Below are positions 60,201 through 63,200 of a stretch of 64,000 nt of DNA, in pieces. Origin of the DNA: Escherichia coli (GTDB lineage Bacteria > Pseudomonadota > Gammaproteobacteria > Enterobacterales > Enterobacteriaceae); the NCBI RefSeq assembly GCF_029227855.1, contig NZ_CP074356.1. One strand, given 5' to 3'. A program made the position numbers. Positions within the stretch are counted from its first letter, which is position 1. The number at the start of each line of letters is the position of its first letter.

Positions 60201-63200
60201 TGCTTTCTGGTGGTCTGGATTCCTCAATTATTTCCGCGATCACCAAGAAATACGCCGCCCGTCGCGTGGAAGATCAGGAACGTTCTGAAGCCTGGTGGCC
60301 GCAGTTACACTCCTTTGCTGTAGGTCTGCCGGGTTCACCAGATCTGAAAGCAGCCCAGGAAGTGGCAAACCATCTGGGTACGGTGCATCACGAAATTCAC
60401 TTCACTGTACAGGAAGGTCTGGACGCCATCCGCGACGTGATTTACCACATCGAAACCTATGATGTGACCACTATTCGCGCTTCAACACCGATGTATTTAA
60501 TGTCGCGTAAGATCAAAGCGATGGGCATTAAAATGGTGCTGTCCGGTGAAGGTTCTGATGAAGTGTTTGGCGGTTATCTTTACTTCCACAAAGCACCGAA
60601 TGCCAAAGAACTGCATGAAGAGACGGTGCGTAAACTGCTGGCCCTGCATATGTATGACTGCGCGCGTGCCAACAAAGCGATGTCAGCCTGGGGCGTGGAA
60701 GCACGCGTTCCGTTCCTCGACAAAAAATTCCTTGATGTGGCGATGCGTATTAACCCACAGGATAAAATGTGCGGTAACGGCAAGATGGAAAAACACATCC
60801 TGCGTGAATGTTTTGAGTCATACCTGCCTGCAAGTGTTGCCTGGCGGCAGAAAGAGCAGTTCTCCGATGGCGTCGGTTACAGTTGGATCGACACCCTGAA
60901 AGAAGTGGCGGCGCAGCAGGTTTCTGATCAACAGCTGGAAACTGCCCGCTTCCGCTTCCCGTACAACACGCCGACGTCCAAAGAAGCGTATCTGTACCGG
61001 GAGATCTTTGAAGAACTGTTCCCGCTTCCGAGCGCCGCTGAGTGCGTGCCGGGCGGCCCTTCCGTCGCGTGTTCTTCCGCTAAAGCGATCGAATGGGATG
61101 AAGCGTTCAAAAAAATGGACGATCCATCTGGTCGTGCGGTTGGTGTTCACCAGTCGGCATATAAATAAGACGTATAATATTGCCCCGGAGAAATCCGGGG
61201 CAATTTCAGTTACTGGGGCGCTTGTTGATTCTGATATGCAGTAAGGAAATGTTCCGGGTTTGCCACATCGCTGTTTGACAATTCATCACTGTAGGCCAGT
61301 ACTTCATAGATTAATTTCCCACCACTATTGTTGAATTCCGAATTTCATCCTGTATGACAAAAGAATGGCTGTAGGGTGGGGAAAAAACACAAAGTAAACA
61401 ATAATTGACGAATATAGCGCCATGCTGTTCGCAACCTAACCAAACAGTCACTTTCGAGCAATTTTCCTTGAAAAAGAGGTTGACGCTGCAAGGCTCTATA
61501 CGCATAATGCGCCCCGCAACGCCGATAAGGTATCGCGAAAAAAAAGATGGCTACGTAGCTCAGTTGGTTAGAGCACATCACTCATAATGATGGGGTCACA
61601 GGTTCGAATCCCGTCGTAGCCACCATCTTTTTTGCGGGAGTGGCGAAATTGGTAGACGCACCAGATTTAGGTTCTGGCGCCGCAAGGTGTGCGAGTTCAA
61701 GTCTCGCCTCCCGCACCATTCACCAGAAAGCGTTGTACGGATGGGGTATCGCCAAGCGGTAAGGCACCGGTTTTTGATACCGGCATTCCCTGGTTCGAAT
61801 CCAGGTACCCCAGCCATCTTCTTCGAGTAAGCGGTTCACCGCCCGGTTATTGGGGTATCGCCAAGCGGTAAGGCACCGGTTTTTGATACCGGCATTCCCT
61901 GGTTCGAATCCAGGTACCCCAGCCATCGAAGAAACAATCTGGCTACGTAGCTCAGTTGGTTAGAGCACATCACTCATAATGATGGGGTCACAGGTTCGAA
62001 TCCCGTCGTAGCCACCAAATTCTGAATGTGTCGAATATGTTCGGCAAATTCAAAAACCAATTTGTTGGGGTATCGCCAAGCGGTAAGGCACCGGATTCTG
62101 ATTCCGGCATTCCGAGGTTCGAATCCTCGTACCCCAGCCAATTTATTCAAGACGCTGACCTTGTAAGTGCACCCAGTTGGGGTATCGCCAAGCGGTAAGG
62201 CACCGGATTCTGATTCCGGCATTCCGAGGTTCGAATCCTCGTACCCCAGCCACATTAAAAAAGCTCGCTTCGGCGAGCTTTTTGCTTTTCTGCGTATATT
62301 CAATGTCGAATGCGATGTTGACACGTCTTATCCTTCAAAGTCGGATGCGACGCTGACGCGTCTTATCCGACCTACGGTTGGCATGCATCCGGCAATGTTG
62401 TAAGGCTACAACCCTAACGCATATTTCAGCGCCTGACGTTTCAACACGCCAGCACGCTCCGCCGCCATCAAACCAAGATTACGCACAAAACGCAGTGGCG
62501 GGAGATTATTGCTGAATCCGGCATAAAACAGATCCATACCGCTCTGCATAATGAAGTTATCCGCCATGCGCCGCATCTGGTAACGCTTGAGGATCGGATA
62601 ACTGGCCCACGCTTCGCCATAGCTGCGAGCGTTGACCAGAACGTCAATCAGGGCATCGACATCACGATAACCAAGATTCACTCCCTGCCCCGCCAGCGGA
62701 TGGATGGTATGCGCGGCATCGCCCACCAGAGCAAGCCCTGGTTGCACATACTGCAACGCATGGCGACGTATCAGCGGAAACGCACCAGCGGCAAGCGGTG
62801 TCACGTAACCCAGACGCGACGGGAAATGCTTCGCGATTTCCGCCTGTAACTGCGCCATATTCATATTCTGCAACTGGCGAATGCGTGCCGGAGAGTCATA
62901 CCACACCAGCGATGCCCAGTTATCAAACAACGGCAGAAACGCACGAGGTCCATCCGGGGTAAATTGCTGCCAGGTGCTGTCGCCGGGATCGTTCTCACAC
63001 TGTACGCTAATCAACATACACGACTGTGCATACTGCCAGGCATGAACGCCAATTCCCGCCATCTGCCGCACCTGCGAATTTGCGCCGTCGGCACCAATCA
63101 CCAGCTTCGCGAGGATCGTTTCACCGCCCTTCAGTTCCAGCTCCTGAAGATCATTATGGCGATGCAGTGCAATCAGCGAGGTTGGCACACGTAACGTTAC

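What the first reader, a model, noticed from the sequence alone, without database searches (positions are those of the whole stretch)
61480..62290. Seven-tRNA operon with pairwise identical duplicates and a stringent-type promoter
Between asnB and ubiF lie tRNA-Met(CAU), tRNA-Leu(UAG), two tRNA-Gln(UUG), a second tRNA-Met(CAU) and two tRNA-Gln(CUG), all on one strand with short spacers. A single promoter (TTGACG-17-CATAAT with a GC-rich discriminator) precedes them and one strong terminator follows. This matches the known metT-leuW-glnUW-metU-glnVX operon; the tandem identical copies are substrates for unequal recombination, and glnV is the classical supE locus.
Basis: partly seen in the sequence, partly recalled or inferred. 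Interest (0 to 1): 0.25.

Follow-up and report, generated by a model that had tools for sequence, protein, structure and literature searches.

The report
Known seven-tRNA metT operon of E. coli

Summary
ARAGORN and Rfam both find seven tRNA genes on the + strand at 61549-62252: Met(CAU), Leu(UAG), Gln(UUG) x2, Met(CAU), Gln(CUG) x2. The duplicates are 100% identical and the spacers are 8-48 nt. A TTGACG-17-CATAAT promoter with a GCGCCCC discriminator lies 41 nt upstream. A -17.9 kcal/mol hairpin with a T-run follows.

The window is E. coli. [quoted passage not shown] Published work shows one polycistronic transcript, matured by RNase E and RNase P, and shows the unit is essential.

New here:
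- The -35, -10 and discriminator are 99-100% conserved in 117 Enterobacterales species, while their surroundings drift to about 63%.
- The discriminator and early leader motif is shared with tyrT.
- Copy number differs by genus, from 4 to 8 genes.
- About 1.4% of 5,426 complete E. coli assemblies show other copy numbers. At least 13 of these assemblies lack leuW altogether. That state should be non-viable, so they are probably assembly collapses, and the census is only suggestive.

One correction: the classical supE44 lesion has been mapped to glnX, the distal twin, not glnV.

Verdict: already known, low interest.

The parts
61470..61478 (+). A-tract (GAAAAAGAG) just upstream of the -35; candidate proximal UP-element subsite
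   Evidence: Read directly from the sequence. The AAAAA at 61471-61475 is at least 90% conserved in 117 Enterobacterales upstream regions. The UP-element reading rests on resemblance to the AAAAAARNR consensus as I recall it, and was not tested.
61480..61485 (+). -35 hexamer TTGACG
   Evidence: Promoter scan. Conservation is 0.99 across 117 species. Identical in K-12.
61503..61508 (+). -10 hexamer CATAAT, 17-bp spacer after the -35
   Evidence: Promoter scan. Conservation is 1.00 across 117 species.
61509..61515 (+). GC-rich discriminator GCGCCCC
   Evidence: Read from the sequence. Conservation is 1.00. Identical to the tyrT discriminator.
61516..61548 (+). Inferred 5' leader. The transcription start is inferred at or near G61516. 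The first ~17 nt (GCAACGCCGATAAGGTA) are invariant across species.
   Evidence: The start site is inferred from the distance to the -10 and from analogy with tyrT. It was not mapped here.
61549..61625 (+). metT, elongator tRNA-Met(CAU)
   Evidence: Identical to K-12 metT. The acceptor stem is fully paired (G1-C72) and the anticodon stem has no GGG:CCC, so it is not an initiator (sequence).
61634..61718 (+). leuW, tRNA-Leu(UAG)
61742..61816 (+). glnU, tRNA-Gln(UUG)
61851..61925 (+). glnW, tRNA-Gln(UUG), identical to glnU
61941..62017 (+). metU, elongator tRNA-Met(CAU), identical to metT
62066..62140 (+). glnV, tRNA-Gln(CUG); wild-type anticodon CTG at 62098-62100
62178..62252 (+). glnX, tRNA-Gln(CUG), identical to glnV. 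Wild-type anticodon CTG at 62210-62212. This is the gene that carries the supE44 lesion in K-12 lab strains.
   Evidence: The supE44 assignment is from PMC4444293.
62258..62290 (+). Rho-independent terminator: 11-bp stem, TTCG loop, then TTTTTGCTTTTCTG
   Evidence: A comparable hairpin with a T-run follows the last tRNA in 85 of 99 complete Enterobacterales loci. PMC2241853 shows that RNase E removes it before RNase P acts.
59504..61168 (+). asnB (upstream flank)
   Evidence: Upstream of the cluster in 99 Enterobacterales loci.
62406..63581 (-). ubiF (downstream flank, convergent)
   Evidence: Downstream on the - strand in 86 loci.

Best explanation

A strong sigma-70 promoter starts transcription at about 61516. 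Its parts are an A-tract, TTGACG, a 17-bp spacer, CATAAT and the GC-rich discriminator GCGCCCC. One primary transcript of about 770 nt runs through all seven tRNAs to the intrinsic terminator at 62258-62290.

Maturation follows published K-12 work. RNase E first removes the terminator and separates the distal Gln tRNAs. RNase P then cuts at each mature 5' end. 3' exonucleases trim back to the genome-encoded CCA.

According to K-12 work, the unit holds every genomic copy of elongator tRNA-Met, tRNA-Leu(UAG), tRNA-Gln(UUG) and tRNA-Gln(CUG). That is why it cannot be deleted.

The GC-rich discriminator places the promoter in the growth-rate and ppGpp/DksA-controlled stable-RNA class. This step is inferred, not shown.

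The identical 75-77-nt copies allow unequal homologous recombination, which has changed copy number repeatedly during the evolution of Enterobacterales.
For: Shown here:
- Seven tRNAs with the stated anticodons.
- Pairwise identity of the duplicates and an encoded CCA in every gene.
- A promoter and a terminator at the expected places.
- Base-for-base identity of all genes and the promoter with K-12, whose annotation names the genes.
- The locus is present in 5,425 of 5,426 complete E. coli genomes.
- Synteny with asnB and ubiF holds across Enterobacterales.
- The -35, -10 and discriminator are 99-100% conserved, against 63-65% for the spacer and the far upstream region, in 117 species.
- The promoter shares its discriminator and early leader motif with tyrT.
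- Copy number is consistent within genera and differs between them.

From the literature:
- A full-length polycistronic transcript and the RNase E then RNase P pathway (PMC2241853).
- Essentiality of the unit, which holds all copies of these four anticodons (PMC11480407).
- metT and metU are the only elongator tRNA-Met genes (PMC6265465).
- A spontaneous metT/metU recombination that deleted leuW-glnU-glnW on a plasmid (PMC5400242).
Against: Nothing contradicts the identification. The weak points are these:
- The promoter pattern alone is not enriched over shuffled sequence (2 sites found, 2.1 expected). Its reality rests on position, conservation and the literature.
- The transcription start was not mapped here.
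- I retrieved no direct data on ppGpp/DksA control of this promoter.
- Part of the E. coli copy-number variation is certainly assembly artefact.
Confidence: 0.97

Rival explanations
1. The two CAU tRNAs are not elongator tRNA-Met. They could be initiator tRNA-fMet, or tRNA-Ile2 whose CAU anticodon is converted by lysidine. Software cannot tell these apart from the anticodon alone.
For: ARAGORN assigns identity from the anticodon only.
Against: The sequence is identical to K-12 metT and metU. These are the experimentally defined elongator tRNA-Met genes (PMC6265465). The acceptor stem is fully paired from G1-C72, whereas bacterial initiators have a C1xA72 mismatch. The anticodon stem is CATCA/TGATG, without the three G-C pairs of initiators (sequence; the criteria are from established tRNA biology).
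Confidence: 0.01
2. The seven genes are not a single transcription unit. Internal promoters in the longer spacers (34-48 nt) drive some of the genes independently.
For: The metU-glnV spacer is 48 nt and AT-rich. Band III (metU glnV glnX) accumulates in rne-1 cells.
Against: No + strand promoter-like site is found inside the cluster. The spacers are too short for a full promoter plus leader. PMC2241853 detects the full-length transcript with probes running from upstream of metT to the glnX terminator, and attributes band III to an RNase P cut, not to a new start.
Confidence: 0.03
3. The copy-number variants seen among E. coli assemblies are all assembly errors, through collapse or mis-expansion of identical 75-77-nt repeats. 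The locus would then be effectively fixed at seven genes within the species.
For: At least eight 'complete' assemblies carry a promoter-Met-Gln(CUG) junction that removes leuW, glnU and glnW. Examples are strain 536 (Met Gln Gln) and the lab strain MC1061 (Met Gln). Thirteen of 5,426 assemblies have no leuW anywhere. That state should be lethal (PMC11480407). Five lab-strain assemblies with near-consecutive accession numbers all show a third Gln(UUG).
Against: Collapse cannot create extra copies. Expansions occur in many unrelated isolates: 35 genomes with 3 or more Gln(UUG), 29 with 3 or more Gln(CUG), and 10 with a duplicated Met-Leu-Gln unit. Their structures are orderly. Different genera carry different, internally consistent copy numbers. 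Recombination between metT and metU has been observed directly (PMC5400242).
Confidence: 0.25

Closest known systems
[quoted passage not shown]
   Same: Gene order, anticodons, all seven gene sequences, the promoter, the terminator and the flanking genes asnB and ubiF are the same.
   Different: There are only four spacer differences: one T fewer in the metT-leuW spacer, a G/A change plus one extra A in the metU-glnV spacer, and a G/T change in the glnV-glnX spacer. The window is 100% identical to clinical strain JNEC-KY178 over 61200-62500.
tyrT (tyrT-tyrV) promoter of E. coli, the classical stringently controlled tRNA promoter
   Same: Both have ATGCGCCCCGC spanning the end of the -10 and the discriminator, and both have CCGATAAGG in the early transcribed region.
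   Different: The -35 differs (TTTACA in tyrT, TTGACG here), as do the upstream sequence and the rest of the leader. The genes downstream are different.
Other polycistronic tRNA operons of E. coli (for example valU-valX-valY-lysV and argX-hisR-leuT-proM)
   Same: They share one promoter, short spacers, tandem identical copies and a terminal Rho-independent terminator.
   Different: According to PMC2241853 the maturation route differs. In the metT operon the terminator is removed first by RNase E, and RNase P then separates the units. In argX and glyW, RNase E cuts in the spacers come first.

Membership tests
metT-leuW-glnUW-metU-glnVX operon of Enterobacteriaceae | Seven tRNA genes in the order Met(CAU)-Leu(UAG)-Gln(UUG)x2-Met(CAU)-Gln(CUG)x2 on one strand | tested here: met
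   ARAGORN and Rfam.
metT-leuW-glnUW-metU-glnVX operon of Enterobacteriaceae | Sequence identity of the genes to the K-12 reference genes | tested here: met
   The alignment to MG1655 shows all seven genes identical. The gene names come from the annotation.
metT-leuW-glnUW-metU-glnVX operon of Enterobacteriaceae | Location between asnB and ubiF | tested here: met
   The same synteny holds in 99 and 86 Enterobacterales loci respectively.
metT-leuW-glnUW-metU-glnVX operon of Enterobacteriaceae | Co-transcription as one polycistronic RNA | not testable with these tools
   Sequence shows one promoter and one terminator. The experimental proof is for K-12, in PMC2241853, and the DNA here is identical over the promoter and the genes.
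Stringently / growth-rate controlled stable-RNA promoters | GC-rich discriminator between the -10 and the start site | tested here: met
   GCGCCCC at 61509-61515. It is invariant in 117 species and identical to tyrT.
Stringently / growth-rate controlled stable-RNA promoters | Near-consensus -35 and -10 hexamers, often with an A/T-rich UP element | tested here: met
   The hexamers match 10/12 consensus positions with a 17-bp spacer. A conserved A5 tract lies at 61471-61475. UP-element function itself was not tested.
Stringently / growth-rate controlled stable-RNA promoters | Inhibition by ppGpp/DksA in vivo or in vitro | not testable with these tools
   The paper search retrieved no direct data for this promoter.
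Elongator tRNA-Met (as opposed to initiator tRNA-fMet or tRNA-Ile2) | Watson-Crick 1-72 pair, no three consecutive G-C pairs in the anticodon stem, and identity to metT/metU | tested here: met
   The acceptor stem GGCTACG/CGTAGCC is fully paired and the anticodon stem is CATCA/TGATG. The sequence is identical to K-12 metT and metU, which are the elongator genes (PMC6265465).
supE (amber suppressor) allele | Anticodon CUA in one tRNA-Gln(CUG) gene | tested here: not met
   Both copies carry the wild-type CTG. The window strain is not a suppressor strain. The locus is the supE locus, but the classical supE44 lesion lies in glnX.

The most novel reading that the evidence does not exclude
Two modestly novel readings remain open.

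(1) The first ~17 transcribed nucleotides (GCAACGCCGAUAAGGUA) are invariant in 117 Enterobacterales species and are partly shared with the tyrT leader. They could be a functional element in their own right. For example, they might be an initial-transcribed-sequence determinant of ppGpp/DksA or growth-rate control, or a determinant of leader processing. The alternative is that they are only a passively conserved leader.

(2) The expansions to 9-11 tRNA genes seen in about 1% of E. coli assemblies could be real, reversible dosage polymorphisms that tune the supply of Gln, Met and Leu tRNAs.
Probability: 0.3. Interest if true: 0.3.

Novelty: already known. Interest (0 to 1): 0.08.

Why it matters
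The locus matters because it is essential. It carries every gene for four tRNA species, and it is the home of the classical supB and supE suppressors. All of this has been textbook knowledge since about 1980.

The practical points from this check are small:
- The promoter core and the early leader are among the most conserved non-coding bases in the region.
- Copy number at this locus is labile over evolutionary time.
- Some 'complete' public assemblies, including E. coli 536 and one MC1061 assembly, have collapsed this locus into a biologically implausible form. That is a caution for tRNA-gene censuses.
- supE44 lies in glnX, not glnV.

Tried and rejected
- I searched Rfam at a permissive E-value over 61100-62500 for any other RNA. 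Only the seven tRNAs passed. Sub-threshold hits (Plastid-ycf2 antisense to the tRNAs, rsmX, isrB and istR over the terminator, naRNA4 over the REP-like repeats) are chance or repeat-driven.
- The ORFs that overlap the tRNA genes on both strands were dismissed as mechanical artefacts.
- I predicted that a metT/metU deletion junction would be absent from all genomes, because leuW and glnUW are essential. The prediction failed: at least 8 assemblies have it. Rather than accept viable deletions, I checked for leuW elsewhere. Thirteen assemblies have none at all. I therefore conclude assembly collapse, and I downgraded the weight of the whole E. coli census.
- The 'single Gln(UUG)' junction probe at first looked like simple deletions. 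All eight one-piece hits turned out to sit inside Met-Leu-Gln unit duplications. No simple six-gene glnU/W collapse was shown.
- Counts from the contraction probes are lower bounds. Normal loci are joined from two pieces and can outrank variants that carry divergent spacers.
- I searched the literature for direct ppGpp data on the metT promoter and found none usable.

Full report
**1. Observation**

ARAGORN finds exactly seven tRNA genes in 60000-64000, all on the + strand:

| Gene | Anticodon | Coordinates |
|---|---|---|
| Met | cat | 61549-61625 |
| Leu | tag | 61634-61718 |
| Gln | ttg | 61742-61816 |
| Gln | ttg | 61851-61925 |
| Met | cat | 61941-62017 |
| Gln | ctg | 62066-62140 |
| Gln | ctg | 62178-62252 |

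- Rfam's tRNA model matches all seven at 57.6-71.1 bits, against a gathering score of 29.
- The two Met copies are identical (77/77), as are the two Gln(UUG) copies (75/75) and the two Gln(CUG) copies (75/75).
- The identity stops within 0-2 nt of the gene borders.
- The spacers are 8, 23, 34, 15, 48 and 37 nt, and each gene encodes its CCA end.
- Gln(UUG) and Gln(CUG) differ at 7 of 75 positions: the wobble base plus three compensatory base-pair swaps. One swap is in the anticodon stem and two are in the T stem. Both are therefore intact, distinct isoacceptors.

The promoter-like site TTGACG-17-CATAAT is at 61480-61508 and is the only + strand site in 61000-62600. GCGCCCCGC follows it. The hairpin at 62258-62283 has an 11-bp stem and a TTCG loop and is followed by a T-rich run. 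It folds at -17.9 kcal/mol, z = -3.95.

**2. Identity**

- Region 61200-62500 matches 5,425 of 5,426 complete E. coli genomes and is 100% identical to strain JNEC-KY178.
[quoted passage not shown] The best-matching record has the same layout.
- Aligned to K-12, all seven genes, the promoter, the leader and the terminator are identical. The only differences inside the operon are one T in the metT-leuW spacer, a G/A change plus one extra A in the metU-glnV spacer, and a G/T change in the glnV-glnX spacer.
- The CAU tRNAs are elongator tRNA-Met. Their acceptor stem is fully paired and they lack the G-C run of initiators in the anticodon stem. They are identical to metT and metU, the only elongator tRNA-Met genes of E. 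coli (PMC6265465).

**3. How it works**

Published K-12 work supplies the mechanism, and it applies to identical DNA.

- Northern probes running from upstream of metT to the glnX terminator detect one full-length transcript.
- RNase E removes the Rho-independent terminator and separates the distal tRNAs.
- RNase P then separates the upstream five.
- RNase T, PH and D finish the 3' ends (PMC2241853).
- The unit cannot be deleted, because it contains all copies of the CAU (elongator), UAG, UUG and CUG anticodon genes (PMC11480407).

These steps are shown in the literature. They are not re-tested here.

**4. Promoter**

The consensus match alone is not significant: 2 sites were found and 2.1 are expected. 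I therefore looked for a phylogenetic footprint.

One scan of species-representative genomes for the Met-to-Leu junction returned 120 loci, all from Enterobacterales or from unclassified MAGs. In 117 distinct upstream sequences the conservation relative to the window was as follows:

| Segment | Conservation |
|---|---|
| -35 hexamer | 0.99 |
| -10 hexamer | 1.00 |
| Discriminator | 1.00 |
| 17-bp spacer | 0.63 |
| Far upstream | 0.65 |

- An A5 tract at 61471-61475 is also at least 90% conserved. It lies where a proximal UP-element subsite would be. That reading is from memory of the consensus and was not tested.
- The first ~17 nt after the inferred start (about G61516) are invariant.
- The metT promoter shares ATGCGCCCCGC and CCGATAAGG with the K-12 tyrT promoter. 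From established knowledge, tyrT is the classical stringently controlled tRNA promoter.

The 'stringent-type' label is therefore well supported by sequence signature and analogy. Direct ppGpp/DksA data were not found.

**5. Terminator and context**

- A hairpin of -8 kcal/mol or better, with a T-run, follows the last tRNA in 85 of 99 complete loci. The median energy is -17.3 kcal/mol.
- asnB lies upstream on the same strand in 99 loci, and ubiF lies downstream on the opposite strand in 86.
- The locus is core-genome DNA, not mobile DNA.

**6. Copy number across species**

Among the complete loci, these arrangements were found:

| Arrangement | Loci | Where |
|---|---|---|
| Canonical 7 genes | 38 | Citrobacter, Enterobacter, Kluyvera, Klebsiella, E. 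albertii (Salmonella also shows it, but its locus is cut at the contig end and is not among the 38) |
| 6 genes, one Gln(CUG) | 29 | Yersinia, Photorhabdus, Xenorhabdus, Serratia, Pectobacterium, Brenneria |
| 6 genes, one Gln(UUG) | 10 | Erwinia and relatives |
| 8 genes, three Gln(CUG) | 5 | various genera |
| Minimal Met-Leu-Gln-Gln | 5 | mostly reduced symbiont genomes (Sodalis, Fukatsuia, Ca. Pantoea persica) |
| Met-Leu-Gln-Gln-Met-Leu-Gln | 2 | Budvicia |

The patterns are consistent within genera across independent assemblies. This argues that the gains and losses are real, as expected from unequal recombination between identical copies.

**7. Copy number within E. coli**

I used synthetic junction probes against 5,426 complete genomes.

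- A third or further Gln(UUG) copy: 35 genomes.
- A third or further Gln(CUG) copy: 29 genomes.
- A duplicated Met-Leu-Gln(n) unit: 10 genomes.
- A single Gln(CUG): at least 2 genomes.

Examples:

| Strain | Arrangement | tRNA genes |
|---|---|---|
| H1827/12 | Met Leu Gln x4 Met Gln x2 | 9 |
| K-12 GM4792 | five Gln(CUG) copies | 10 |
| CT29 | (Met Leu Gln Gln) x2 Met Gln Gln | 11 |
| GF130 | (Met Leu Gln) x3 Met Gln | 11 |
| Origami2-DE3 | Met Leu Gln x3 Met Leu Gln Met Gln x2 | 11 |
| SBF22 | single Gln(CUG) | 6 |

As a control, I predicted that the metT/metU deletion junction would be absent, because it removes leuW, glnU and glnW. It is not absent. At least eight assemblies have it, including strain 536 (Met Gln Gln) and MC1061 (Met Gln). 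Thirteen assemblies have no leuW anywhere. Such cells could not read CUA or CAA codons, so these are almost certainly collapsed assemblies.

The census therefore shows that the locus is error-prone in assembly, and it only suggests real polymorphism. Collapse cannot create expansions, so expansions are more credible than contractions. Independent experimental support for recombination exists: a spontaneous metT/metU crossover deleted leuW-glnU-glnW on a Salmonella plasmid (PMC5400242).

**8. Correction to the interpretation**

That is the traditional nomenclature (glnV44). Sequencing places the supE44 change in the distal duplicate glnX (PMC4444293, citing Singaravelan et al. 2010). In the window both copies carry the wild-type CTG anticodon (62098-62100 and 62210-62212), so this strain is not a suppressor.

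**9. Verdict**

The finding is real, correctly described and correctly interpreted. It is also already known in detail. Nothing else was found in the interval at a permissive Rfam threshold. Interest is low.

The only mildly open points are two. One is whether the invariant early leader has a function of its own. The other is how much of the intraspecific copy-number variation is real.

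Noticed in passing
window 62299-62371: Between the tRNA terminator and the end of ubiF lie two tandem 35-nt REP-like units (62299-62333 and 62334-62368, 86% alike). The second is an imperfect palindrome (62340-62353 / 62358-62371). A sub-threshold Rfam naRNA4 match covers 62304-62372 (30.9 bits against a gathering score of 59.5). This looks like an ordinary REP/BIME element.
   Followed up: partly
window 61516-61532: The first ~17 nt of the inferred leader (GCAACGCCGATAAGGTA) are invariant in 117 Enterobacterales species, although neighbouring non-coding DNA drifts to about 63%. 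Part of it (CCGATAAGG) also occurs at the same place in the tyrT leader. Whether it has a function beyond the discriminator is unknown.
   Followed up: partly
L130 (E. coli 536, NC_008253.1) and L131 (MC1061, NZ_CP195014.1): These 'complete' RefSeq assemblies show only Met-Gln-Gln and Met-Gln at this locus. Thirteen of 5,426 assemblies have no leuW at all. That state should be lethal, so the locus is probably mis-assembled by repeat collapse in these records.
   Followed up: partly
window 62178-62252 (glnX): The literature places the classical supE44 (glnV44) amber-suppressor mutation in glnX, not glnV (PMC4444293). The window carries the wild-type CTG in both copies.
   Followed up: yes
window 61182-61201: The hairpin GCCCCGG-AGAAAT-CCGGGGC lies 14 nt after the asnB stop codon and is probably the asnB terminator. 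The bases flanking the stem and one loop base differ from K-12, while the stem is kept. The simple terminator scan did not call it, because the T-run is short.
   Followed up: no
window 62258-62283: The operon terminator is symmetric (AAAAA...TTTTT around the stem). It could in principle also terminate the convergent ubiF transcript coming from the - strand. ubiF ends about 120 nt away, at 62406.
   Followed up: no
window 61421-61445: Short blocks 70-95 nt upstream of the inferred start are at least 90% conserved across species (for example CAAAC at 61441-61445). This is the region where Fis sites lie in other stable-RNA promoters. No Fis motif test was done.
   Followed up: no
L041 and L065 (Budvicia), L024 (Arsenophonus endosymbiont): Unusual arrangements were seen. 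Budvicia has Met Leu Gln Gln Met Leu Gln with no Gln(CUG) in the cluster. An Arsenophonus endosymbiont has Met Leu Lys(UUU). I did not check whether the missing genes lie elsewhere.
   Followed up: no
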